A stretch of 64,000 nucleotides of DNA from Candidatus Parcubacteria bacterium (GTDB taxonomy: Bacteria > Patescibacteriota > Patescibacteriia > UBA1558 > GWA2-36-10). The stretch is from assembly GCA_018669975.1 (NCBI GenBank), contig JABHSK010000007.1, forward strand, positions 390-64,389, in the 5' to 3' direction. Shown in pieces: positions 2,278-57,558 of this stretch. Positions within the stretch are counted from its first letter, which is position 1. Each line of letters begins with the position of its first letter. The position numbers were made by a program, and so were the translations under genes. The notes under the pieces were generated by a model. That model saw only the letters and a program-made list of their open reading frames with translations. It was not told the origin of the DNA and did not search any database.

Positions 2278-2314
2278 AATAACTGAATATCAAAAAAATC
2301 GAGTGGTTTATTAT

Positions 2315-2364
2315 GTCAGGTTTCCAACCTGAAGAGAGGGGTTCGATTCCCCTTACCCGCTCCA
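2315..2364 (+). other. 3' partial tRNA-Gly(TCC): anticodon arm, T-arm and acceptor 3' strand plus CCA, with no 5' half. Possible att-site remnant.
   Basis: Anticodon stem tcagg/cctga with loop tttccaa, T-arm aggggttcgattcccct and acceptor tacccgc-t-cca. No complementary 5' acceptor strand or D-arm upstream. Confidence 0.55.
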
Positions 2365-3597: not shown

Positions 3598-4050
3598 CTA
3601 ATAGAATCTTTGATCTCCAAACCATTTTTTGTATAATTTTTTATATTCGCCGTTTTCTTTTAATTTTAAGATTATTCGATTGACTTGTTCACGTAAAGGA
3701 CTGTTTTCAGGAAAAGAAAAGCCATAAACCTGTTTTTTAAATAAATTATTTGCTAAAATAAATCTATCTGATTTATCTTCTTTGATATACTTATAGAGTA
3801 TGGGAGCATCAAATACAACTGCTTCTACAGTCTCTTTTTCCAACATTTTATAAGCTTCTTTGATAGTGTTGGTTTCTATTACATTAGCTCCTAGTTGCTG
3901 AAGAATTTTAACACTAGTTGTATTTCCTTTAGTGGCAACTTTTTTTGCTTTAAGATCATCCGGACTAGAAATATTTGATTTAGAGGAGTTTTCAATCCCA
4001 TGGTCGGAACATATGATTAATTTAAATAAAATTTTAAAGTAATATGTCAG
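3598..4050 (-). pseudogene. Amino-acid ABC transporter substrate-binding protein (SBP_bac_3), C-terminal fragment lacking a start codon and the N-terminal lobe
   Basis: ...KAKKVATKGNTTSV...AVVFDAPILYKYIKE...KKLYKKWFG is the lobe-2/C-terminal signature. The frame opens at a stop at 4051 with no ATG/GTG/TTG until 3846. GC content jumps at 4054. Confidence 0.45.
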
Positions 4051-10761: not shown

Positions 10762-11292
10762 TTAATTATTTTTACTGATGGTAACAGATAAGGTAGGTCC
10801 TTGTGCTTGGATGTCCTTGTCCATTTTGTATTCTATTCCTAATGATTCTAAAAATTGTTTAATTTTTTCTCTAGCCTTTGGTTTAAAAGCGCGTTCTCTA
10901 CCTTTGAGTCTCAATTCTACTTTAACATTGTGTCCTTGATCCAAAAATTTAGTAACTTGTTTTTTCTTGACTAGTAGATCGTGCTCACCAATTTTAAACG
11001 ACAGACGTACACCCTTGGTCTCAACTTTCTTAGCTTTTTGTTGAGTTCTATTTTGTTTATACTGAAATTTACCGTAGTCCATGATTCTACAGACAGGAGG
11101 CTTAGCAACAGGGGATACTTCGACAAGATCAAAGCCACGCTCTTGAGCCATGGTTAATGCTTGCGAGGTCTCCAAAACACCCAACTGTTCACCTTTTTCA
11201 TCTATGACCATTACTTCTGGTACACGGATCCAGTTGTTGATTCGGAATCGTTTAGTTTGAATTTTCGCTTTATTGCGTCTTTTGGTTCTAAT
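10762..11292 (-). CDS. infC: Translation initiation factor IF-3, probably starting at a non-ATG (ATT) codon
   Basis: The IF-3 N- and C-domains are present (VIDEKGEQLGVLETSQAL...). The open frame upstream encodes TKRRNKAKIQTKRFRINNWIRVPEV with an in-frame ATT at 11290-11292. Confidence 0.75.
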   Translation of the reverse strand: MRTKRRNKAKIQTKRFRINNWIRVPEVMVIDEKGEQLGVLETSQALTMAQERGFDLVEVSPVAKPPVCRIMDYGKFQYKQNRTQQKAKKVETKGVRLSFKIGEHDLLVKKKQVTKFLDQGHNVKVELRLKGRERAFKPKAREKIKQFLESLGIEYKMDKDIQAQGPTLSVTISKNN

Positions 11293-11380
11293 AAGTTTAT
11301 TTTAATTTTTTAGTAGCCTTCTTGATCCTTTAGGGATTTTGAAAACATATTGATAAAACAATGATGATAAGTATAATTTT

Positions 11381-48192: not shown

Positions 48193-48293
48193 GGGCAGGT
48201 AGTTTAACTTATTCCCAGGGCCCGGGAAGACCAAGTTAAAGCACCGACTGACCAGGTCGGAGATTGGGAGTTCGAATCTCTCTCTGCCCACCA
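48193..48293 (+). tRNA. tRNA-like gene (101 nt) with a ~25-nt extension of the D region; identity unclear
   Basis: Acceptor gggcagg/tctgccc-a-CCA, T-arm gggag-ttcgaat-ctctc and anticodon-like arm ccgac-tgaccag-gtcgg (G at position 33). The D region is a 41-nt extended hairpin (tttaactt...aagttaaa). Confidence 0.4.
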
Positions 48294-48306
48294 TTTTTCC
48301 CAGGCA

Positions 48307-48381
48307 AGGGGTGTAGCTCAGCAGGATAGAGCGTCTCGTTTCGGCGAGAGGTCGAAGGTTCGATTCCTTCCACCCCTGCCA
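48307..48381 (+). tRNA. tRNA-Arg (anticodon most likely UCG)
   Basis: Acceptor aggggtg/cacccct-g-CCA, D-arm gctcagcaggatagagc and T-arm gaagg-ttcgatt-ccttc. As read, the anticodon stem tctcg/cgaga encloses a 6-nt loop tttcgg. Confidence 0.6.
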
Positions 48382-48412
48382 ATAGTTCTTTATTATATTC
48401 ATCTCAGATGGA

Positions 48413-48487
48413 GTCCACGTACCTCAGGGGTAGAGGGCTTGTGTGTTAAGCAAGTTGTCACTGGTTCAAATCCAGTCGTGGACTCCA
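48413..48487 (+). tRNA. tRNA-Asn (GTT)
   Basis: Acceptor gtccacg/cgtggac-t-CCA, anticodon stem cttgt/gcaag with loop gtGTTaa, and T-arm actgg-ttcaaat-ccagt. Confidence 0.8.
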
Positions 48488-48493
48488 TAAGGA

Positions 48494-48597
48494 GCGGGCA
48501 TAGCTCAGCTGGCAGAGCATCTTTGGGACTTGGTAGTACCGCAGGGTAACTACCACGAAAAAGACGGTCGGGAGTTCGAGTCTCTCTGCCCGCTCCA
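48494..48597 (+). tRNA. tRNA-like gene (104 nt) with a ~28-nt insertion in the anticodon loop; identity unclear
   Basis: Canonical acceptor gcgggca/tgcccgc-t-CCA, D-arm gctcagctggcagagc and T-arm gggag-ttcgagt-ctctc. The anticodon stem tcttt/aaaga encloses 35 nt, including the hairpin tggtagt..actacca. Confidence 0.4.
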
Positions 48598-48718: not shown

Positions 48719-49717
48719 ATGAAAAAACTAGATCAAGTATACGATCACGTAACATCTTTAGGCATAGGATTAACCTCATTATGTAACCTTAAGTGCTCCC
48801 ATTGCTACTCAAAAAATTTAAGTAAGAAGACCCTAACTCTAGCAGAAATGGAAGGGATTTTTGAGTATTTTCCTAATTTACAGAAAGTAAATTTTGGCAC
48901 TGGCGAGAGCATACTAAATCCTGATTTTTTAAAAATTGTTGATTTTTTTCATGCCAAAAAGATAAAAATTGCAGTTACATCAAATGGTACTACTATTGCT
49001 CAGATGTCTGATGAGCATCTAAAGAAACTGGATGAGGTAGATATTTCTCTAGATTTTGCCAACGCTAAAGAACATGATGAGTGGAGGGGTTATCCTGGTT
49101 TGTTTGATAGAGCCATTGAGTCTATAGAGAGGTGTAAAAAATTAGGCATTGAAATATCCATTGCTACAGTATTGATGAATTCTAACTATAAAGTTTTTGG
49201 AGAGTTTAAAAAGATATTAGATAAATATGATATTCATCTGAGAGTAAACTTATGTAAACCAGTAGATACTGATGAATTTCAGATGAGCTATGAAGAGTTT
49301 TGGGAATCAATGAAAATAATTGCTGATAATTTCACTTTAGTAGCTAGCTCAGAGCCTGTGTTAGCTATTGTTACTGATATTAATGATCATTTGTGTGGAT
49401 CTCCTTGCGGTGATTCAGTTAGGCTACATCCAGATTTTAGTGTTAGTCCTTGTGTTTATGTGGATGGTAATAAGATTTCAACAGAGAAGTTTATAGAAAT
49501 GAAAAAACAAATCCCGAAATTTTGTCAGGATTGTGATTTTGTTGATAAATGCCGAGGTGGCTGTATGAGTAGAAGAATTTTTAATGATAATGTTGATAAG
49601 CCAGATGAGTATTGTCCAATTTATCGTGGAGATAAAATTCCAGAGATAAATTTCAAAACATTAGTAGGAAAAGAGTTTATACATAGTAATTATTTGTGTA
49701 CATTTATTTTAAAATAA
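48719..49717 (+). CDS. Radical SAM / SPASM-domain protein
   Basis: N-terminal CNLKCSHC and a C-terminal cysteine-rich SPASM region (CGSPCGDS...CQDCDFVDKCRGGC...YCP). A promoter TTGACA-17-TATGGT lies upstream. Confidence 0.7.
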   Translation: MKKLDQVYDHVTSLGIGLTSLCNLKCSHCYSKNLSKKTLTLAEMEGIFEYFPNLQKVNFGTGESILNPDFLKIVDFFHAKKIKIAVTSNGTTIAQMSDEHLKKLDEVDISLDFANAKEHDEWRGYPGLFDRAIESIERCKKLGIEISIATVLMNSNYKVFGEFKKILDKYDIHLRVNLCKPVDTDEFQMSYEEFWESMKIIADNFTLVASSEPVLAIVTDINDHLCGSPCGDSVRLHPDFSVSPCVYVDGNKISTEKFIEMKKQIPKFCQDCDFVDKCRGGCMSRRIFNDNVDKPDEYCPIYRGDKIPEINFKTLVGKEFIHSNYLCTFILK

Positions 49718-49747
49718 TAGTGTAAGAAAAAACCACAAGACATGTAA

Positions 49748-50863
49748 ATGAAAGGGGTAGCGATGTTGCTGGATGTCAGTAAGTACGCTGACCAAATTGA
49801 GCGTCGGCGAGCAAGGCGAAGCCTAGCTGCCCAACTTAGCCCCAATGCAAATGTACCGATATGTTTTTATTTCAACGGTGCATTTTATTGTGAGCTACTG
49901 GGCGTTGATGTCGAGGAATATTATCGGGAACCAGAATTACAGGTTGAGGTTCAGCTTAAGGGCTGGCAGTGGCAAATGGAGCATTTGCGTGCAGATTCTT
50001 CCACCTGTGATTGGATTGGTTTTGAGACGGGCCCGATTGGCGAAGCGGTTGCCTTTGGTACACCAATATTCACCAGTCAAAATAGTCCGCCTGTCAGTCA
50101 GTCGATTGAAAATGATCTATCCGAGATTCTCAAATTGCAAGTTATTCCACCGGATAGAAATAGACTGTGGCAGAGCTTACAGGCTAAGGCAGAACGTTTT
50201 GCTGCTCGAGCCAGTAAGTTGGGAACCAACATTCCCGTTGCTAAGTTTAGGCCACCGGCCATTCATTTGCCTTTGACGGCAACATGTTTATTGGCTGATG
50301 CTACTCAAGTAATGCTAGCAGTGGGGGGTCGAACTCCTGAGTTAGATAAGGTACTGTGGCATATGTGTCATGCTTTAATTGAGTGGAATGCTTATTTTTA
50401 TGGCAATGGTGAAATGTGGTTGTGTGACGATTATATCTGTTTCATTTCCGAGGCAGATTTTCGGGCATGCTTAACTAAGCATTATCAGTTTTTAAACACT
50501 GTCTATTCTGATAGGCGCTTGTGTTTTCATGCTGATGGTCCTTTAGATCAGCACTTTGCTCATTTGCTGGATTTTGTATCAGCTAAAAAGGTAGATATCG
50601 GCGGCTTCAGCTCTTTAGTAGAAGAACGACGTCATCTACAGGGTAGAGTGTTGTTTTCCGGAGGCTTGAATAACAAGGATTTCGACAAACACGGTTTGCA
50701 TCAAACGACTATCAAGAAGGCTCTTCAAGCAATTGAAGATTCTAAAGCCGAAGGAGGCTTTGAACTTTCTATTGGTGGTCAGTGCTACGTGGGTGTTAAT
50801 CCTGACAGCCTTTGTCAGTTGGTAGAAATAGTCCGATCGGAGTATAATTACGCTATAGAGTGA
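49748..50863 (+). CDS. Hypothetical protein (~48% GC); possible URO-D/MtaA-like TIM-barrel. Alternative start at 49763.
   Basis: ORF with an internal RBS-like aaagggg before the second ATG. Weak pattern resemblance only. Confidence 0.35.
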   Translation: MKGVAMLLDVSKYADQIERRRARRSLAAQLSPNANVPICFYFNGAFYCELLGVDVEEYYREPELQVEVQLKGWQWQMEHLRADSSTCDWIGFETGPIGEAVAFGTPIFTSQNSPPVSQSIENDLSEILKLQVIPPDRNRLWQSLQAKAERFAARASKLGTNIPVAKFRPPAIHLPLTATCLLADATQVMLAVGGRTPELDKVLWHMCHALIEWNAYFYGNGEMWLCDDYICFISEADFRACLTKHYQFLNTVYSDRRLCFHADGPLDQHFAHLLDFVSAKKVDIGGFSSLVEERRHLQGRVLFSGGLNNKDFDKHGLHQTTIKKALQAIEDSKAEGGFELSIGGQCYVGVNPDSLCQLVEIVRSEYNYAIE

Positions 50864-50924
50864 CATTGAGCCGCAAAGCGGCTCAATGTCACGTATTTAT
50901 TCAGACTACTTTTAAAAAAAATAT

Positions 50925-51593
50925 ATGAATAAAAACAAAACAAACATTAATTGGGATAGTCTTTGGGAAAAAAGAAAAGATTTAGATTGGTGGCGTACAC
51001 CAGCTAAAGACTTTGTTAAAATTCTAGAGTCACTAGATTTTTCTGGTCAGGAAAAGTTTTATGATTTGGGAGCAGGCATCGGCAGGCACACTGTTTTGCT
51101 GGCTAAGGCTGGCTTTGATGTTTATGCTTCTGATGATTCACAAGCAGCCATTGATCAAATAGAGGAGTGGTTAGCCAAAGAAAAAGTATCAGCCAAGACT
51201 TATTTATGTGATATGGCTGAAGGGCCATTTGAAAAAGATTTTTTTGATTTTGTAGTATCTTATAACGTAATCTATCATGGGCAGCAGGAAAGAATGCAGC
51301 AGGCGATAGATCATGTCTATGATATTTTGAAGCCGAACGGATATTTTTATTTTACTTGTCCAAGTATTAAAGATGGACGTTGTGGTTCTGGCACTGAAGT
51401 TGGGTATCAGGCTTGGCGTTGTGAAAATGCTCTAGACAAAGGAGAAGTGCATTGTTTTACGACCAGGGAAGATTTAGATAAATATTTAGAAAAATTTGAA
51501 ATAGTATCTGTTAATTTGAATGAAGGTAGTTTTGTCCACGAAGGCAAGGATAGATTTTATTCAGACTGGCAGGGGTTAGTAAAGAAAAAATAA
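50925..51593 (+). CDS. Class I SAM-dependent methyltransferase
   Basis: Motif I YDLGAGIGRHTVLLAKAGFDVYASD. Confidence 0.65.
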   Translation: MNKNKTNINWDSLWEKRKDLDWWRTPAKDFVKILESLDFSGQEKFYDLGAGIGRHTVLLAKAGFDVYASDDSQAAIDQIEEWLAKEKVSAKTYLCDMAEGPFEKDFFDFVVSYNVIYHGQQERMQQAIDHVYDILKPNGYFYFTCPSIKDGRCGSGTEVGYQAWRCENALDKGEVHCFTTREDLDKYLEKFEIVSVNLNEGSFVHEGKDRFYSDWQGLVKKK

Positions 51594-52474
51594 AAGATTT
51601 AGACAAAAACATTTCCGTAGTTTTAAGACTAACCAAGTATTGCAACTTAAGTTGTGAGCATTGTTATTATGCTGCTTCACCAGACAATAAGCATAGTATG
51701 TCAGAGTATAAGGTAAAACAAGCTTTGGAAGATTTGGCATCTTTAGAAAAAGAAGGATTTAAAATAAACGAAATCAGGTTGACTGGCGGTGAAGTGACAG
51801 CCTTGCCGTATATAGCAGCTCTAACTAAAGATATTAAAACTAGGTGGCCAAAAGCTACTTTGCAGTTGGAGAGTAATGGTATTAAGTTGATGGCCAATGA
51901 AGAATCACGGCAGATGCTTGAGTGGATTGACAGGCTACACATTAGCATTGACACTTGGCATGACAATGTAGACATTGAGGGGAATTCAAAGATTTTAGAT
52001 TTTTTATTGAAGCGTAGAAAAAAATATAAATTTGGAGTATTGGTGCACTGGGCTACCAATCAAGACGATGAAGAATTAATGCAGAAGTTTTTAACTAAGT
52101 ATGAGCCGCAACAAATTGATTTTCATATCAGTGAGGTGTCACCAGCTGGGCGGGGAGGAAATTTAAATGAAAGGTTTTTAGCTAAACATCATTCACAACG
52201 TACAGTTTGTAGTTTTGCCAATTATATACTTCTAGATGTTGATGAACACTGGTATAGCTGCAGGGTAATGGCTGATTATAGTCGCATTGGTAAAATTGCT
52301 TGTAAAGATTTTGTAAATAAGATAAATAAAGCCAAAAAAATAAGGCAGGAGCTAGCTATTGACAAAATTGGCATTCCGTTATTTAATAGAGAACTTGATA
52401 AGGCTAAGGTTTGTAAGCAAATCAAGCAAAACAAAGGAATAATATGTGATCTTTGTAAAAAGGTCAATTTATAA
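51590..52474 (+). CDS. Radical SAM protein; 5' end uncertain because the CxxxCxxC motif lies upstream of the first ATG at 51698
   Basis: The open frame from 51554 encodes ...NISVVLRLTKYCNLSCEHCYY before the first ATG. Candidate starts are ATA at 51590 (overlapping the upstream TAA), ATT at 51611, or a -1 frameshift from the upstream methyltransferase gene. Confidence 0.5.
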   Translation: MKDLDKNISVVLRLTKYCNLSCEHCYYAASPDNKHSMSEYKVKQALEDLASLEKEGFKINEIRLTGGEVTALPYIAALTKDIKTRWPKATLQLESNGIKLMANEESRQMLEWIDRLHISIDTWHDNVDIEGNSKILDFLLKRRKKYKFGVLVHWATNQDDEELMQKFLTKYEPQQIDFHISEVSPAGRGGNLNERFLAKHHSQRTVCSFANYILLDVDEHWYSCRVMADYSRIGKIACKDFVNKINKAKKIRQELAIDKIGIPLFNRELDKAKVCKQIKQNKGIICDLCKKVNL

Positions 52475-52517
52475 TAGATAAAGCACCTTAAAATTCTAGC
52501 AGCGAGGGGAGTGTACC

Positions 52518-53117
52518 GTGAGTGGTAAATTTGTGGCTCTTGTTGGCCCTTCAGGGGTAGGCAAGACTACCATCATCACTGCTCTGATGAGCTCTTCAAC
52601 TGATTTTGTCAGGATGTTGCCGCATACAAGTCGGCCACCTCGACCCTATGAAGTTGAAGGAGAAGATTATTGGTTTGTGTCTCGCGATGAGATACAAGCG
52701 ATGTTGGCAGCCGATCCTAGGCTCAAAGAAACTTTGGTTGAGTTTGACGGACACCAGTTCGTTATTGACTACAATCGGATTGAGCAAATGTTGGCTGACG
52801 GTAAAGTAATATTGATGGACCTCTATATTAACTGGGTTCAGCAGTTTAAAGAAAGGTATGACCAGCAGATGGCTGCCGTACTTTTGCTGCCGGATGACCT
52901 GGATGTATTGGTCGATCAGCTAAGTCGCTCGAGGAAACATGATCCCGAATTTGTGGATAAACGCATGGCCCAGACTGCTCGGGAGATGAACATCTTCCAA
53001 AACAAGATGAAGCCTTATTTTAATAAGGTAATTGTCTTGCCGCGGTCTTTGGATATGGCAGTGGCCCAGGTTCGGAGAACTATTACCCTATTAACAGATG
53101 GGGTTGGGGGGCGCTAG
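52518..53117 (+). CDS. gmk: Guanylate kinase (GTG start)
   Basis: ALVGPSGVGKTT P-loop and HTSRPPRPYEVEGEDYWFVSRDE. About 50% GC. Confidence 0.7.
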   Translation: MSGKFVALVGPSGVGKTTIITALMSSSTDFVRMLPHTSRPPRPYEVEGEDYWFVSRDEIQAMLAADPRLKETLVEFDGHQFVIDYNRIEQMLADGKVILMDLYINWVQQFKERYDQQMAAVLLLPDDLDVLVDQLSRSRKHDPEFVDKRMAQTAREMNIFQNKMKPYFNKVIVLPRSLDMAVAQVRRTITLLTDGVGGR

Positions 53118-53150
53118 CTACGGCTTCGGCCTCCCCCCTTTTTATTTTTT
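53105..53150 (+). terminator. Rho-independent terminator (G/C-run stem plus T-run)
   Basis: ggggttggggggcg...ggcctcccccc followed by tttttatttttttt. Confidence 0.5.
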
Positions 53151-53157
53151 TAAAATT

Positions 53158-54672
53158 ATGAATATAAATAACAAAAAATTAAAAAATTCAGATTACTGTT
53201 CTATTTTTAGTAATAAAGATGGTCAGTATGCTGTTTATCATTCACTGACTTGTGATATTGTATATGGTGGCGAACTATTGAATAAATTGTTTGCACATTT
53301 TTCAGACTATAATACTTATCAAGAGCTTGATAAGGAGGATGAAAAAACCAAACAGTTATTAACTACCTTGTACCAAGGTGGTTTTTTAGTTGCTAATGAT
53401 AAGCAAGATCAGAAATTATTGGATAGCATGCAGAAACAAGTTAAAGCCAAACAATTTATCAAGACATTGTATTTGAGTATTACCTATAAATGTAATTTAC
53501 GTTGTAAATATTGTATCAGTAATAATGACGTTGCTTTAGATGGAGACAAAAAACTTTCTTTTATGGACATGGATAAAGATACTGCTAAACAGGTAGTTGA
53601 TTATTATTTGCAGCATGTGGTAGATGAGGGTGATAAGGAGGTTGTTCTCTATGGCGGTGAACCATTAGTTAATTATGAAGTTTTGAAATTCATGGTTGAA
53701 TATATAGAGGAAAAAGAATCAGCTAAAATAAAAAAGAATAAAGATTATAAGAGGAGTCGTTTTATTTTGTGTACCAACGGCACTTTAATTAATAAGGAAA
53801 AAGCAGCCTATCTAAAAGAGCACAGGATTTATCCAGCAGTTACTTTTGATGGAGATCAACTGGCTCATGATAATGTTCGGGTTTATGCCAACGGGCAAGG
53901 AACATTTGAGGATGTAGTCAAAGCTTATAGAAATTTACAGGAGCTAGATTTTCCAATTGGTGTGACATTGACTTTAGGTAGTCACAATGTAGACAAGGTG
54001 GCAGATTTTGTAGAGTTGTTTGCTAAAAAGCTACAACCTCATACTATGGCTACTAATATTATGATTGATTACGATGATGGTGGTAATCCCTATGTCTGTG
54101 AAGGTAATACTCTAGCAGATAATTTAATTAAAGCTTTTGAAGTTGCTAGAAAACATGGCATGTATTTGGTTAAGTATGTTATGGATAATCGTATTAAACC
54201 TTTTGTAGAAAAACAGCCAAGACTTAAAGGATGCACGGGCACTGGATCAAGGATTATGGTTTTGCCGGATGGTTCTCTGTCAGCTTGTATGGCTTATGCT
54301 AATAATTCATCAGTCAAAGTAAAAGATAATCCAAAGGTAGAGGAATTTTTGCCAACGGGTATAAAAACCTATTCACCATTTCTCAAACAACAATGTCGCT
54401 ATTGTCCAGCTATTTCTTGCTGCGGTGGCGGTTGCCCTAAGAGCGCGGAGGTTAAACATGGTACCTTATTCTCATTGGACGACGATTACTGTATTCAGAG
54501 TAAGAGATTTTTAGAATGGTTAATTTGGGATTTATACAATTTTATTGATCAGAAGCAACTGGTCAAAGATGGTTTTGTAATTCCCAGCGATGAAGAACGC
54601 CATAAGATATATGGAAAAATAGAAGTGCGTCGCAGTCCATTAGATTTTCAATATACACCTAACGCTAATTAA
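53158..54672 (+). CDS. Radical SAM / SPASM-domain protein with a ~115-aa N-terminal extension (possible peptide-recognition domain)
   Basis: ITYKCNLRCKYC and the SPASM region CTGTGSRIM...SAC...CRYCPAISCCGGGCP. The start is placed after the terminator, at MNINNKK. Confidence 0.7.
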   Translation: MNINNKKLKNSDYCSIFSNKDGQYAVYHSLTCDIVYGGELLNKLFAHFSDYNTYQELDKEDEKTKQLLTTLYQGGFLVANDKQDQKLLDSMQKQVKAKQFIKTLYLSITYKCNLRCKYCISNNDVALDGDKKLSFMDMDKDTAKQVVDYYLQHVVDEGDKEVVLYGGEPLVNYEVLKFMVEYIEEKESAKIKKNKDYKRSRFILCTNGTLINKEKAAYLKEHRIYPAVTFDGDQLAHDNVRVYANGQGTFEDVVKAYRNLQELDFPIGVTLTLGSHNVDKVADFVELFAKKLQPHTMATNIMIDYDDGGNPYVCEGNTLADNLIKAFEVARKHGMYLVKYVMDNRIKPFVEKQPRLKGCTGTGSRIMVLPDGSLSACMAYANNSSVKVKDNPKVEEFLPTGIKTYSPFLKQQCRYCPAISCCGGGCPKSAEVKHGTLFSLDDDYCIQSKRFLEWLIWDLYNFIDQKQLVKDGFVIPSDEERHKIYGKIEVRRSPLDFQYTPNAN

Positions 54673-54673
54673 T

Positions 54674-56089
54674 ATGGGAGAATTGAATCCACAAATTAAA
54701 GATCAATTATCAAAGTATGTACGAGTATTTGATTTTGGTGAACATCTATGTTTACTGAATGGCTTGTCTTTAGATAAAGTTTTCATTAAAGCGGATGCAG
54801 ATAATCAGGAGACCAAAGATGTTTTGCAAAAGTATAATTTGCTTAAAGATTTTGATGTAAAGGCTGAGAAATTTGTGAGTGGTTGTCAGAGTAAGTTTGA
54901 TCCTAGTTTTAGGCAATTGTATCTGGTGGTGACGGAAGCTTGTAATTTTGATTGTAAATATTGTCGGCAAGTAACACACGACGTCAAGGGTAATCGTAGT
55001 ATGACTCGAGACGAGGCTAGATTGATTGTTGATAATTTTTTTAATTTGGCGGAGGACAAACCACGTGGCGTAGTTTTTTATGGTGGTGAGCCATTGGTGA
55101 ATAAAGAGGTTATGTTGGATGCAGTTAAATATATTCGGCAGAAAGAAAGTAAATTAAAATTGGATAGGCCGATTGATATGACTATCATTACCAATGGTAC
55201 TTTAGTAGATCATGATAGCGCACAGGTACTCAAGGATAATGATGTTTATATTATTATGTCTATTGATGGTCGCGCTCAAGAGCATGACAAGTTTAGAGTT
55301 TATGCAAATGGTAAAGGAACCTTTGACGATGTTATCAAGGGTTATAAAATATACCAGCAAGCTGGTTGTAGAGTAGGTATATCTTGTACAATTGGTTCAC
55401 ATAATTACGACAATCTAGAGGACATTTTTGATTATTTTGCTAATGATTTGCAACCAATTAATGTTGGTATCAACCTACCACATGACGATCACGACAATCC
55501 ATTAAATGATGATTTAGATTTTGGAAAATTCTGTCAACGTATGTTCAAAATTTTTGAACAGTCAACAGATAACAATTTATATATAGAGCATATTATCAGA
55601 AAGTTGAAACTTTTATTTAGACACGAGATTAAAATTAATGACTGTGCAGCCTGTGGTGGTAGATTGGTTGCTTTACCTGGGCAAAGATATGGAGTTTGTG
55701 AAGGAGCGATTGGTATGGATGAGTTTTTCTTTACAGACATAAAGAGGGTTGCTGAGATGTCCGCAGAATGGTATGGAACTTCTCCGCTTTTTGATGACCA
55801 TTGTAGTAATTGTGCTGCTGTCGGAGTCTGTGGTGGTGGTTGTCCTTTTGATGGATATTTAGAAGCCAAGCAGGTTGGACACCGTGATAGTCGTCGTTGT
55901 CTATTTATGAATAAGATTGTCGAGTGGGGATTAGAAAATTTTTATAAAATACACAAAAATAAATTGCAAGGCAAGAAATACTATATTCCGAATTTGAGTG
56001 ATCAACATGATTTTTTGAAAGAGATTAAAGCTATTAATGATAGTTTACCCTTGCGTAGTTCTGCTAGTTTTAGTAATACCAAATTATGA
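54674..56089 (+). CDS. Radical SAM / SPASM-domain protein, paralog of 53158..54672
   Basis: VTEACNFDCKYC and the SPASM region CAACGGRLVALPGQRYGVC...CSNCAAVGVCGGGCP. The two genes share VYANG(K/Q)GTF(D/E)DV. Confidence 0.7.
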   Translation: MGELNPQIKDQLSKYVRVFDFGEHLCLLNGLSLDKVFIKADADNQETKDVLQKYNLLKDFDVKAEKFVSGCQSKFDPSFRQLYLVVTEACNFDCKYCRQVTHDVKGNRSMTRDEARLIVDNFFNLAEDKPRGVVFYGGEPLVNKEVMLDAVKYIRQKESKLKLDRPIDMTIITNGTLVDHDSAQVLKDNDVYIIMSIDGRAQEHDKFRVYANGKGTFDDVIKGYKIYQQAGCRVGISCTIGSHNYDNLEDIFDYFANDLQPINVGINLPHDDHDNPLNDDLDFGKFCQRMFKIFEQSTDNNLYIEHIIRKLKLLFRHEIKINDCAACGGRLVALPGQRYGVCEGAIGMDEFFFTDIKRVAEMSAEWYGTSPLFDDHCSNCAAVGVCGGGCPFDGYLEAKQVGHRDSRRCLFMNKIVEWGLENFYKIHKNKLQGKKYYIPNLSDQHDFLKEIKAINDSLPLRSSASFSNTKL

Positions 56090-57558
56090 AAGTCGTAATA
56101 CTAGATATTCCAACTACAGAGATTTTTTCTACACCTGAATTTAACAGGTTGTCTTCAGAGGTCAAAAAATATCGTCTACATGATCAAAAAGTTAAATTGG
56201 AAGATAAATACAATATTCGTTTTTCACCACCGCATACTTACAACCGTGGACTTTTATTCGTGGCAGCGGTACTAGAAGAAAAGGGTGTTGAGGTTGATTA
56301 TTTTAATGGAGACTATGACAAAGATTTTTGGCAGAAATGTCAGGATAAAATAAAGGAAGCAGATGTATTGATGGCTTCAGTAAAAACCAATAATTATCCA
56401 GTTATTTTAGAGTATTTTGTTCAAGCCAGAGAAATAAAACCAGGGATTACAACTATGATTGGTGGTTCACATGCTACGGCTATGCCTGAACAATGTTTAG
56501 AAAACGATTTGATAGATTTTGTAGTGATAGGTGAAGGTGAGATTACTTTGGCAGAATGGCTAGATGTTTATCAATCTACTGGTGATGATTATAGTCAGAT
56601 TTTAGGCTTGGGTTACAAACAAGGCAAAGAAGTTAAAGTGAACTCTTTACGTCCTTTGATAGAGGCTCTAGATGCTTTGCCGATGCCTGCTTATCATTTG
56701 TTGCCAGGTGGCCTTAAAGAATATCATCCTTATATTGATACTTCCCGTGGTTGTATGTATCAATGTGGTTTTTGTAGCGGGCCAAACTTTTGGCGCCGTA
56801 AAATGCGCACCAGATCATTTGCTAATTTTTATAAAGAATTAGAATTGATTAAATCATTGATGGGGGATTATAACTTTATTCATATTTCAGATCCAATGCT
56901 GGGAGTGACTCCACAGCAGTTGGAAATATTGAACCAGTTAAAAGAAAAAGAAATTGATTTATATTTTTCTTGTGATGTTAAAGCTAATTATATTCGTCCA
57001 GATTTAATTCAATTGATGAAAGACAGCGGAATTATTATTTTTTCCATTGGCATTGAAACCCTAAATGATAAAGCGCTGACTTTACTAAAAAAGAATTGTA
57101 CAGCTGAACTAGAAATTGAAGCTTGTCGAGCCATTAAAAAGTTTGATGGTATTTATGTAAAATCATATTGGATTGTTGGTTTGCCAGGCGAGGATAAGGA
57201 ATCACTGCAATATAACAACGAGCAAATTTATAATTTATTGAAGACAGAAGCAGTTGATCAAGTTTGTAATCATATTTTAGTTCCATATCCAGGTACAGAG
57301 TTTTTTCATGATCCAAAACAGTTTGGTATCAATATTATGCATGATGATTGGATACACTATGAGGGCAGATCATATCCTTTAATTTATAAACTAGACAATC
57401 TGTCTGGTGATGAAATATACAAATATTTTTTAGAAGCTCACGAATATGAGCTCAAATATTATAAGGAAGCATATCCAAGTATAGCTTTTACTGATGAACC
57501 TGGTAAGCAAGATCAAGATAACATGAGTTTTGGTAAGTACAAAGGAAGGCTACTTTAA
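56086..57558 (+). CDS. B12-binding domain radical SAM protein (class B-like)
   Basis: N-terminal cobalamin-binding-like domain followed by TSRGCMYQCGFCSGP (C-x3-C-x2-C). Confidence 0.7.
   Translation: MKVVILDIPTTEIFSTPEFNRLSSEVKKYRLHDQKVKLEDKYNIRFSPPHTYNRGLLFVAAVLEEKGVEVDYFNGDYDKDFWQKCQDKIKEADVLMASVKTNNYPVILEYFVQAREIKPGITTMIGGSHATAMPEQCLENDLIDFVVIGEGEITLAEWLDVYQSTGDDYSQILGLGYKQGKEVKVNSLRPLIEALDALPMPAYHLLPGGLKEYHPYIDTSRGCMYQCGFCSGPNFWRRKMRTRSFANFYKELELIKSLMGDYNFIHISDPMLGVTPQQLEILNQLKEKEIDLYFSCDVKANYIRPDLIQLMKDSGIIIFSIGIETLNDKALTLLKKNCTAELEIEACRAIKKFDGIYVKSYWIVGLPGEDKESLQYNNEQIYNLLKTEAVDQVCNHILVPYPGTEFFHDPKQFGINIMHDDWIHYEGRSYPLIYKLDNLSGDEIYKYFLEAHEYELKYYKEAYPSIAFTDEPGKQDQDNMSFGKYKGRLL

What the first reader, a model, noticed from the sequence alone, without database searches (positions are those of the whole stretch)
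51550..51700. Radical SAM catalytic motif lies upstream of the first ATG at a methyltransferase/rSAM junction, suggesting a -1 frameshift or non-canonical start
The frame containing ...NISVVLRLTKYCNLSCEHCYY (CxxxCxxC) is open from 51554, but its first ATG is at 51698, downstream of the catalytic cysteines. The upstream methyltransferase ends ...GTA AAG AAA AAA TAA at 51591-93. The rSAM frame is -1 relative to it, and the junction is an A-rich slippery run (AAAGAAAAAATAAAAG). Three readings are possible: a programmed -1 frameshift at AAA-AAA-TAA giving a MTase-rSAM fusion, initiation at ATA (51590, ATAA overlap) or ATT (51611), or a sequencing indel in the A-run. An AGGGG RBS-like element sits 14 nt upstream of the ATA.
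Basis: seen in the sequence. Interest (0 to 1): 0.55.

Follow-up and report, generated by a model that had tools for sequence, protein, structure and literature searches.

The report
Radical SAM gene lacking a normal start codon
A radical SAM enzyme gene in an uncultured Parcubacteria genome has no ATG/GTG/TTG ahead of its catalytic cysteines, most likely because one base change turned an overlapping stop/start signal ATGA into ATAA, so it is probably an ordinary separate gene using a weak start codon, not a frameshift fusion.

Summary
The frame is open from 51554. The CxxxCxxC motif (51641-51664) lies upstream of the first ATG (51698), with no ATG/GTG/TTG before it. The methyltransferase (MTase) ends at TAA 51591-93, and the radical SAM (rSAM) frame is -1 to it.

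A sequencing indel is excluded. Nine assemblies from several runs carry the identical A6 run, and the window is a second genotype (SNP 51574).

A programmed frameshift is not supported:
- Both other lineages with the MTase-rSAM pair have separate genes with ATG starts, in different frame relations.
- No MTase-rSAM fusion appears among the relatives.
- No structure follows the A-run.
- A6 runs are common (107 in the window).

Best reading: a separate cistron whose start has decayed to a near-cognate codon.
- ATA 51590 aligns without gaps with an in-frame ATG in the only close ortholog.
- ATAA is one G>A change from the ATGA stop/start overlap used at 56086 in the same operon.
- ATT 51611 is a viable alternative start, and recent silencing cannot be excluded.

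GenBank already models the gene from a non-ATG start (MBT6691406.1, 306 aa). The protein itself looks like an intact EpeE/YydG-like rSAM enzyme. Low interest overall. The odd tRNA-like genes nearby may merit more attention.

The parts
50925..51593 (+). Class I SAM-dependent methyltransferase gene (222 aa), ending in TAA at 51591-93
   Evidence: ORF list. Pfam Methyltransf_25/11 at E 1e-16. Orthologous MTases sit directly upstream of the rSAM in L001 and L016.
51571..51575 (+). SD-like pentamer AGGGG (AGGTG in all nine other assemblies), 14 nt upstream of ATA 51590
   Evidence: SD-led genes in this window have 6-10 nt spacing, so 14 nt is out of range. SD-like pentamers occur at 4.6 per kb.
51574..51574 (+). 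The only polymorphism near the junction: G in the window, T in L002-L010. It changes MTase Gly to Val and is synonymous in the rSAM frame.
51585..51590 (+). A6 run at the MTase C-terminus (AAA AAA = Lys Lys), the proposed slippery site
   Evidence: Identical in nine assemblies. One of 107 A6+ runs on this strand.
51590..51593 (+). ATAA junction: ATA (favoured near-cognate start, or vestige of one) overlapping the MTase stop TAA. One G>A transition away from the ATGA overlap.
   Evidence: ATA aligns without gaps with the in-frame ATG 1734 of L001. ATGA overlaps occur at 56086-89 in the same operon and at 34322-25.
51590..52474 (+). Most likely rSAM coding sequence (294 codons plus stop), an EpeE/YydG-like radical SAM enzyme
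   Evidence: Pfam. Alignment with 12 relatives. AlphaFold2 model with pLDDT 87.9 and beta1 at residues 7-13. Best PDB fold match is EpeE 8ai1, TM 0.72.
51554..51556 (+). ATT, first codon of the open frame, used as the start by NCBI for MBT6691406.1 (306 aa)
   Evidence: It would give a 29-residue N-terminal lead, longer than in any of the 12 relatives.
51566..51568 (+). In-frame CTG, a minor alternative near-cognate start
   Evidence: Read from the sequence. No supporting evidence.
51611..51613 (+). In-frame ATT, the alternative near-cognate start
   Evidence: It aligns with the initiator Met of P0009, P0012, P0013 and P0014. It is an internal Ile codon in L001.
51641..51664 (+). CxxxCxxC [4Fe-4S]/SAM-binding motif (CNLSCEHC)
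   Evidence: The cysteines are invariant in 13 family members.
51698..51700 (+). First canonical start (ATG). It is used by JGI, ENA and Logan gene calls and gives a 258-aa product without the cluster motif.
56086..56089 (+). Intact ATGA stop/start overlap between the SPASM rSAM and the B12 rSAM in the same operon (comparator)

Best explanation
The MTase and the rSAM are two separate cistrons of one tightly packed operon. The rSAM has lost its canonical initiation codon. Most likely its start once overlapped the MTase stop as ATGA, and a G>A transition at 51592 made it ATAA. That change kept the MTase stop (TGA to TAA) but degraded the rSAM start (ATG to ATA). The rSAM would then be made at a low level from the near-cognate AUA at 51590, or less likely AUU at 51611. 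The ribosomes involved would have just terminated at the overlapping UAA, or would load on the unstructured A-rich leader. Shown: the missing canonical start; that the N-terminal segment is coding and conserved; that orthologs are separate ATG-started genes; the positional homology of ATA with an ortholog ATG; and the use of ATGA overlaps in the same operon. Inferred: the ancestral ATGA state, and that AUA or AUU is actually used for initiation today.
For: (1) Nine assemblies plus the window's own genotype share the junction exactly. (2) In L001 (44% identical ortholog with a syntenic cluster) the rSAM is a separate gene with in-frame ATGs at 1734 and 1746, around the MTase stop at 1739-41. 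In L016 a 22-nt spacer separates the MTase stop from the ATG. (3) Gap-free codon alignment puts window ATA 51590 opposite L001 ATG 1734. (4) ATGA overlaps occur at 56086-89 in the same operon and at 34322-25, in the same context (ATGAAAG versus ATAAAAG). (5) All 12 relatives begin with Met 0-9 residues before strand beta1, and none has an N-terminal MTase. (6) The segment upstream of ATG 51698 is under purifying selection, pN 0.14 versus pS 0.77. (7) The region 51581-51617 is predicted unpaired and A-rich, like the SD-less leaders of the other operon genes. (8) infC in the same window also lacks a canonical start ahead of its IF3_N domain, so near-cognate initiation is used in this organism. 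(9) In E. coli, AUA, AUU, AUC and CUG initiate at about 0.02-3% of AUG (bioRxiv 10.1101/063800). Termination-reinitiation at 4-nt overlaps is established (PMC6728339). (10) NCBI already models the gene from a non-ATG start.
Against: There is no direct evidence of translation or of the protein's N-terminus. AUA is a very weak initiator in E. coli. No SD lies at a useful distance (AGGGG is 14 nt away, against 6-10 nt in this genome). The ancestral ATGA is inferred from one ortholog, whose gene caller preferred the second ATG (1746), which aligns with GAC in the window. The four codons after ATA are not conserved, so they could be untranslated. All available genomes of this organism are 99.9% identical or more, so ongoing selection on the gene cannot be tested.
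Confidence: 0.58

Rival explanations
1. Start-loss pseudogene or silenced gene. The G>A change, or whatever removed the ATG, abolished useful translation. The rSAM ORF is still intact only because the loss is recent. Only trace product, or the inactive 258-aa product from ATG 51698, is made.
For: No canonical start exists, and near-cognate codons give 3% of AUG or less in E. coli. No SD lies at a proper distance. All available genomes are clonal, so the mutation could be young.
Against: The 294-codon frame is fully open in a 37.6% GC genome. All invariant family residues, including seven cysteines, are kept. The model folds confidently. The rest of the operon is intact. Two genotypes, from several samples, share the allele.
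Confidence: 0.22
2. Programmed -1 ribosomal frameshift. tRNA-Lys on AAA (51588-90) slips back one base while the UAA stop waits in the A site, possibly helped by the upstream SD-like AGGGG/AGGTG. This would give an MTase-rSAM fusion (...GLVKKK-IKDLDKNISVV...).
For: The rSAM frame is -1 and open across the junction. An A AAA tetramer precedes a stop codon. An SD-like pentamer lies 8 nt before G AAA AAA and 12 nt before the P-site codon, a layout that, from my own knowledge of dnaX, resembles that site. No canonical start is available.
Against: The zero-frame heptamer is G AAA AAA, not X XXY YYZ. No hairpin or pseudoknot follows the A-run (z-scores +0.2 to +0.45; the first 27 nt after the stop are unpaired). 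In L001 the rSAM is in the +1 frame with ATG starts, and a -1 slip on its A7 run would, on my reading of the sequence, hit TGA at once. L016 has a 22-nt spacer. No MTase-rSAM fusion appears among the best-scoring relatives that were checked, out of 1255 hits; the 535 and 565-aa proteins have non-MTase N-terminal extensions. A6+ runs (107) and SD-like pentamers (4.6 per kb) are common.
Confidence: 0.07
3. Initiation further upstream inside the MTase gene, at ATT 51554 (the NCBI model, 306 aa) or CTG 51566. The product would carry an extra 8-12 residue N-terminal extension.
For: The frame is open from 51554. AAGGA (51546-50) lies 3 nt before ATT 51554. PGAP chose this start.
Against: The N-terminal lead would be longer than in all 12 relatives. 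The extra residues are fixed by the conserved MTase C-terminus in the other frame (RFYSDWQ) and have no counterpart in L001, where the frame is closed by TAG 12 nt before ATG 1734 (my reading of the sequence). The 3-nt SD spacing is shorter than the 6-10 nt seen in this genome. PGAP appears simply to have taken the first codon of the open frame.
Confidence: 0.08
4. Sequencing or assembly indel in the A-run, so that the true genome has a different frame relation.
For: Homopolymer runs are error-prone on some platforms.
Against: The junction is identical in nine assemblies made with different assemblers from at least three runs, and in a second genotype, the window. Correcting the A-run length would fuse the frames but still supply no start codon. 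The run is only 6 nt.
Confidence: 0.01

Closest known systems
Near-cognate (AUU/AUA) initiation codons in bacteria, for example infC and pcnB of E. coli
   Same: A conserved protein domain extends upstream of the first ATG/GTG/TTG. An in-frame AUA or AUU sits where relatives have their Met. The infC gene of this same window shows the classical case.
   Different: infC's AUU is conserved and serves IF3 autoregulation (established knowledge). Here the non-canonical start is lineage-specific, since the two other lineages have ATG. It looks like decay rather than a conserved regulatory device, and no experimental N-terminus exists.
ATGA stop/start overlaps with termination-reinitiation coupling (Huber et al. 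2019, PMC6728339)
   Same: A 4-nt overlap of the upstream stop with the downstream first codon, inside a tightly packed operon that uses a true ATGA overlap two genes downstream.
   Different: The shared tetranucleotide is ATAA, so the restart codon is near-cognate. Whether reinitiation tolerates AUA was not tested here or, as far as I read, in that paper.
dnaX-type programmed -1 frameshifting (SD-like element, A AAA AAG, downstream hairpin)
   Same: An A-rich run, an SD-like pentamer about 8-12 nt upstream, and a downstream ORF in the -1 frame.
   Different: The heptamer is out of register (G AAA AAA). There is no downstream structure, no conservation in orthologs and no fused homologs. The slip would have to occur at the stop codon itself.
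EpeE/YydG radical SAM peptide epimerase of Bacillus subtilis (PDB 8AI1-8AI6)
   Same: Best sequence match in the PDB (E 7e-5) and best fold match (TM 0.72 over the full length). Both have a short N-terminal lead before CxxxCxxC, and the window family has additional conserved cysteines (C207, C224, C286, C289).
   Different: Only 18% identity. The protein scores 44.7 bits against a 300-bit cut-off for TIGR04078. No YydF-like precursor peptide was identified, and the gene neighbourhood is different.

Membership tests
Programmed -1 ribosomal frameshift site (dnaX type) | Slippery heptamer X XXY YYZ in the zero frame | tested here: not met
   Zero-frame codons are AAG AAA AAA TAA, so the heptamer is G AAA AAA. 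Only the tetramer A AAA allows single-tRNA slippage.
Programmed -1 ribosomal frameshift site (dnaX type) | Stimulatory hairpin or pseudoknot 5-9 nt downstream | tested here: not met
   The first 27 nt after the stop are unpaired. MFE z-scores are +0.21 and +0.45 against shuffles.
Programmed -1 ribosomal frameshift site (dnaX type) | Upstream SD-like stimulator about 10-14 nt before the shift site | tested here: inconclusive
   AGGGG (AGGTG in other strains) lies 8 nt before the heptamer and 12 nt before the P-site codon. Such pentamers occur at 4.6 per kb by chance.
Programmed -1 ribosomal frameshift site (dnaX type) | Shift site and frame relation conserved in orthologs, or fused orthologs exist | tested here: not met
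   L001: +1 frame with ATG starts. L016: 22-nt spacer and an ATG. No MTase-rSAM fusion among the best-scoring relatives that were checked.
Gene with a near-cognate initiation codon | Conserved, selected coding sequence upstream of the first ATG/GTG/TTG | tested here: met
   The Pfam domain starts 23 codons before the ATG. pN 0.14 versus pS 0.77 for KNISVV...ASP.
Gene with a near-cognate initiation codon | In-frame AUA/AUU/AUC/CUG at the position where relatives start | tested here: met
   ATA 51590 aligns with L001 ATG 1734. ATT 51611 aligns with the Met of P0009 and P0012-P0014.
Gene with a near-cognate initiation codon | Experimentally mapped N-terminus or initiation site | not testable with these tools
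   The organism is an uncultured Parcubacteria. No proteomic or ribosome-profiling data are available here.
ATGA-type overlap with termination-reinitiation coupling | 4-nt overlap of the upstream stop with the downstream start | tested here: met
   ATA (51590-92) and TAA (51591-93) share three bases and span the four bases 51590-93, the same geometry as ATGA at 56086-89 and 34322-25.
ATGA-type overlap with termination-reinitiation coupling | Canonical restart codon (ATG/GTG) | tested here: not met
   The codon is ATA.
Radical SAM superfamily (PF04055) | CxxxCxxC motif and a Pfam score above the gathering threshold | tested here: met
   CNLSCEHC at 51641-64. 50.4 bits against 29.5 when the ORF is read from 51554. 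The 258-aa ATG model has only a weak hit.
YydG/EpeE radical SAM epimerase family (TIGR04078) | Score above the NCBIfam equivalog cut-off | tested here: not met
   44.7 bits against a cut-off of 300, although the alignment covers 9-291 of the protein and 2-290 of 309 model positions.
YydG/EpeE radical SAM epimerase family (TIGR04078) | Fold similarity to the EpeE crystal structure | tested here: met
   Foldseek E 7e-12, TM 0.72/0.66 to 8ai1_B, from a model with pLDDT 87.9.

The most novel reading that the evidence does not exclude
The A-run and stop codon form a lineage-specific -1 frameshift site, with tRNA-Lys slipping at A AAA AAA UAA helped by the upstream SD-like element. A Parcubacteria cell would then make both free methyltransferase and an MTase-rSAM fusion from one message, replacing a lost start codon with recoding.
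Probability: 0.06. Interest if true: 0.55.

Novelty: new member of a known kind. Interest (0 to 1): 0.2.

Why it matters
The main consequence is for annotation. Prodigal-type gene calls (JGI, ENA, Logan) give a 258-aa protein that lacks the iron-sulfur/SAM motif, so it scores only weakly as radical SAM. The NCBI model over-extends to the first codon of the open frame. The likely true product is 294 aa, or 287 aa from ATT 51611.

Biologically, the locus is a tidy example of how an ATGA overlap can lose the downstream start while keeping the upstream stop. It raises a testable question: can termination-reinitiation rescue a near-cognate AUA restart codon? It does not reveal a new mechanism.

The enzyme sits in an unusual cluster for a reduced CPR genome, with five radical SAM genes. 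Whether this member is expressed therefore matters for any attempt to reconstruct that pathway.

Tried and rejected
- **Wider search for orthologous junctions.** The word-indexed protein search found only the gene itself and one ortholog. The genome and metagenome pattern scans found nothing closer than 30% identity. The exhaustive representative search gave about 10 relatives at E below 1e-30. Only L001 and L016 keep the MTase neighbour. L017, L018 and L020 have other neighbours.
- **Population-level dN/dS.** Not possible, because L002-L010 are 99.93-99.99% identical to the window.
- **Exact look-ups.** The window's MTase and the NCBI 306-aa protein were not on record. The MTase miss is consistent with the window being a separate genotype.
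- **N-terminally extended relatives as possible MTase fusions.** P0018 and P0024 were checked. Their extensions have no methyltransferase domain.
- **Origin of the samples.** A literature search on the sample and run identifiers found nothing.
- **Transcriptional slippage.** Rejected because the run is only six A's and such runs occur 107 times in the window.
- **Alternative genetic code.** Rejected because genes across the window close normally under table 11.
- **tRNA with a six-base anticodon loop (48307-48381).** Considered as a frameshift agent and rejected. Its loop is UUUCGG, which is unrelated to Lys codons.

Full report
**What is in the sequence**

The MTase ORF runs from 50925 to 51593 and ends GTA AAG AAA AAA TAA. 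The next ORF is closed by TAG at 51551-53 and open from 51554 to 52474. Its first ATG/GTG/TTG is ATG 51698. Read from 51554 it encodes ILFRLAGVSKEKIKDLDKNISVVLRLTKYCNLSCEHCYY... The Pfam Radical_SAM match (50.4 bits, cut-off 29.5) starts at residue 26, so the domain and its CxxxCxxC motif (51641-51664) lie upstream of the first canonical start. The rSAM frame is -1 relative to the MTase. AGGGG sits at 51571-75, 14 nt before ATA 51590. Among the stop-to-stop ORFs of at least 150 codons in the window, this 48-codon gap before the first canonical start is among the longest. Of the four ORFs with gaps of 30 codons or more whose domains were checked, only this gene and infC have a conserved domain reaching upstream of that start.

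**It is not an assembly artefact**

The 258-aa ATG-started product is on record from about 20 contigs. Nine of these, with DNA available (L002-L010), come from ENA, JGI and Logan assemblies of several runs. All carry exactly the same 221 bases around the junction, including the A6 run. The one difference is at 51574, G in the window and T elsewhere. Overall they are 99.93-99.99% identical to the window. The window's own MTase sequence is not on record, so it represents a second genotype with the same junction. NCBI holds the same gene as MBT6691406.1, 'radical SAM protein [Candidatus Parcubacteria bacterium]'. That model is 306 aa, which means it starts at ATT 51554 translated as Met. An annotation pipeline has therefore already treated the gene as starting at a non-ATG codon.

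**Comparative evidence**

The family is rare:
- One ortholog at 44% identity (P0002, locus L001) was found by the indexed search.
- Nothing closer than 30% identity turned up in 185,579 species genomes or in the metagenome scan.
- About ten relatives with E below 1e-30 came from the exhaustive search of 1.8 billion representatives.

L001 is syntenic: URO-D-like gene, MTase, rSAM, guanylate-kinase-like gene, SPASM rSAM. There the MTase stops at TAG 1739-41. The rSAM has in-frame ATGs at 1734 and 1746, in the +1 frame relative to the MTase. In L016 (P0003) a class I MTase again lies directly upstream, with stop TAA at 726-728, a 22-nt spacer and ATG at 751. The MTase-rSAM adjacency is thus conserved in three lineages. 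In the other two the genes are separate, ATG-started and in different frame relations.

All 12 aligned relatives begin with Met between 0 and 9 residues before strand beta1. None has an N-terminal MTase. The two relatives with about 230-residue N-terminal extensions carry no methyltransferase domain. The two of about 690 aa are extended at the C-terminus by a second rSAM or APH-kinase module.

**Where the start is**

Gap-free codon alignment of the window against L001 gives:
- ATA 51590 opposite ATG 1734;
- GAC 51602 opposite ATG 1746;
- KNISVVLRLT.YCNL.C.HCY..ASP conserved thereafter, with saturated synonymous change (pS 0.77) and pN 0.14.

The segment upstream of ATG 51698 is therefore translated sequence under purifying selection, at least on the timescale that separates the two lineages. 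ATA 51590 overlaps the MTase stop as ATAA. Genuine ATGA overlaps occur at 56086-89, between two downstream rSAM genes of the same operon, and at 34322-25. Their context is nearly the same: AATTATGAAAG against AAAAATAAAAG. A single G>A transition at 51592 would convert ATGA to ATAA, keeping the upstream stop (TGA to TAA) and degrading the downstream start (ATG to ATA). I take this as the most economical history.

ATT 51611 is a real alternative. It aligns exactly with the initiator Met of four relatives. In the AlphaFold2 model (pLDDT 87.9), beta1 spans residues 7-13, so a protein starting there would still be complete. The conserved Lys-Asn just upstream of ATT, with a synonymous AAC/AAT difference, weakly favours a start further 5'. 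ATT 51554, the NCBI choice, and CTG 51566 would give N-terminal leads longer than in any relative. Those extra residues are dictated by the conserved MTase C-terminus in the other frame.

**Initiation signals**

Some genes in this window have clear SD motifs, with 6-10 nt spacing. All the operon genes instead have A/T-rich leaders without an SD. The stretch 51581-51617 is predicted unpaired, like those leaders. AGGGG/AGGTG, 14 nt from ATA, is outside the spacing this genome uses. infC in the same window (10762-11301, minus strand) has its IF3_N domain beginning 10 codons upstream of its first ATG, with only ATT or ATC available before that. The organism therefore uses near-cognate initiation in the textbook case. 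In E. coli, AUA, AUU, AUC and CUG initiate at roughly 0.02-3% of AUG (10.1101/063800). Termination-reinitiation at 4-nt overlaps is experimentally established (PMC6728339). That a terminating ribosome restarts on AUA here is my inference and has not been shown.

**The frameshift hypothesis**

It is mechanistically conceivable. tRNA-Lys on AAA 51588-90 could re-pair with AAA 51587-89 while UAA waits in the A site. An SD-like pentamer lies 12 nt upstream of that codon, a layout that, from my own knowledge of dnaX, resembles that site. The defining features, however, are mostly absent:
- The zero-frame heptamer is G AAA AAA.
- No structure follows the run (z-scores +0.21 and +0.45).
- The geometry is not conserved. 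L001 would need a +1 shift, and a -1 slip on its own A7 run would, on my reading of the sequence, meet TGA immediately.
- No fused homolog was found.
- A6+ runs occur 107 times on this strand and 17 times in the operon. SD-like pentamers occur at 4.6 per kb.

I put this reading at about 7%.

**What cannot be settled**

It is unclear whether the gene is still expressed at a useful level or was recently silenced. The ORF is intact, keeps all invariant residues of the family (C18, C22, H24, C25, the TGGE motif, N96-G97, H124, G187-R188, C207 and C224), and folds confidently. But all available genomes are clonal, so current selection cannot be measured. I give silencing about 22%.

**What the protein is**

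Its best sequence match in the PDB is YydG/EpeE (E 7e-5). Its best fold match is EpeE 8ai1 (TM 0.72 over the full length). It is far below the YydG equivalog cut-off (44.7 bits against 300). It is therefore an EpeE-like radical SAM enzyme of a small, unnamed family, not a YydG ortholog. Its function in the cluster is unknown. The cluster comprises an rSAM, a URO-D-like gene, the MTase, this rSAM, a guanylate-kinase-like gene, two SPASM peptide-maturase-like rSAMs and a B12 rSAM.

**Verdict**

The headline interpretation, a frameshift, is unlikely. The sequencing-error reading is refuted. The non-canonical-start reading is supported, with ATA in a decayed ATGA overlap as the best candidate. This is a new instance of a known phenomenon and chiefly an annotation issue, so interest is low.

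Noticed in passing
window 48193-48594 (+): Cluster of four tRNA-like genes between the CysRS gene and the rSAM operon. Only tRNA-Asn(GTT) at 48413-48487 is normal. The gene at 48307-48381 scores 57.8 bits and encodes CCA, but its anticodon stem encloses only 6 nt (UUUCGG, foldable as a UUCG tetraloop). The gene at 48494-48594 (101 nt, discriminator U, CCA) has about 28 extra nt forming a hairpin where the anticodon loop should be. The gene at 48193-48290 (98 nt) has about 26 extra nt in the D-arm. ARAGORN misses the two long ones. All are present in the independent assembly L002. A literature search found no description of such tRNAs in CPR bacteria.
   Followed up: partly
window 10762-11301 (-): infC (IF3): the IF3_N domain starts at codon 21 of the open frame, but the first ATG is at codon 31, inside the domain. 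Only ATT (codons 4 and 14) or ATC (codon 21) are available as starts. This is the classical non-canonical infC start, and a gene caller restricted to ATG/GTG/TTG starts would truncate it.
   Followed up: yes
window 48719-57558 (+): Operon-like cluster with five radical SAM genes: one MoaA/NirJ-like, the EpeE-like one studied here, two SPASM peptide-maturase-like (best match FibroRumin/PapB models) and one B12-binding. It also holds a URO-D-like protein, a class I MTase and a guanylate-kinase-like P-loop protein, in a Candidatus Parcubacteria genome. It is syntenic in L001. No precursor peptide was identified.
   Followed up: partly
L020 5791-10170; P0006, P0010: Relatives of the EpeE-like rSAM recur with the same kinds of partner. 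In L020 the order is a truncated CysRS-like paralog (373 aa, catalytic domain only), an rSAM, this family's rSAM, a B12 rSAM and an APH kinase, with a full CysRS further downstream. In P0006 and P0010 the family rSAM is fused at its C-terminus to a second rSAM or APH module. The window cluster also lies just downstream of CysRS and the tRNA-like genes.
   Followed up: partly
window 50860-50892 (+): Perfect 15-bp hairpin (9 G-C pairs, 3-nt loop) that overlaps the stop of the URO-D-like gene and lies 32 nt upstream of the MTase start. It has no clear T-tract. It could be an intra-operon attenuator or an RNA-stability element.
   Followed up: no
window 51574: G in the window and T in all nine other assemblies. 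The change converts MTase Gly to Val (the ortholog has Ile), is synonymous in the overlapping rSAM frame, and turns AGGGG into AGGTG, which is also SD-like.
   Followed up: yes
window 3598-4050 (-): A 150-codon open frame with only a C-terminal fragment of a solute-binding-protein domain (SBP_bac_3 profile positions 88-131 of 132). Its first ATG is 68 codons in. It may be a gene remnant or another mis-started gene.
   Followed up: no
window 52518-53117 and 53098-54672 (+): Start positions of the guanylate-kinase-like gene and the first SPASM rSAM differ between gene callers (199 versus 194 aa, and 524 versus 504 aa). The longer models overlap by 20 nt.
   Followed up: no
window 2295-2354 (+): Weak, truncated tRNA match (31.4 bits, model positions 7-64) that ARAGORN does not call.
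   Followed up: no
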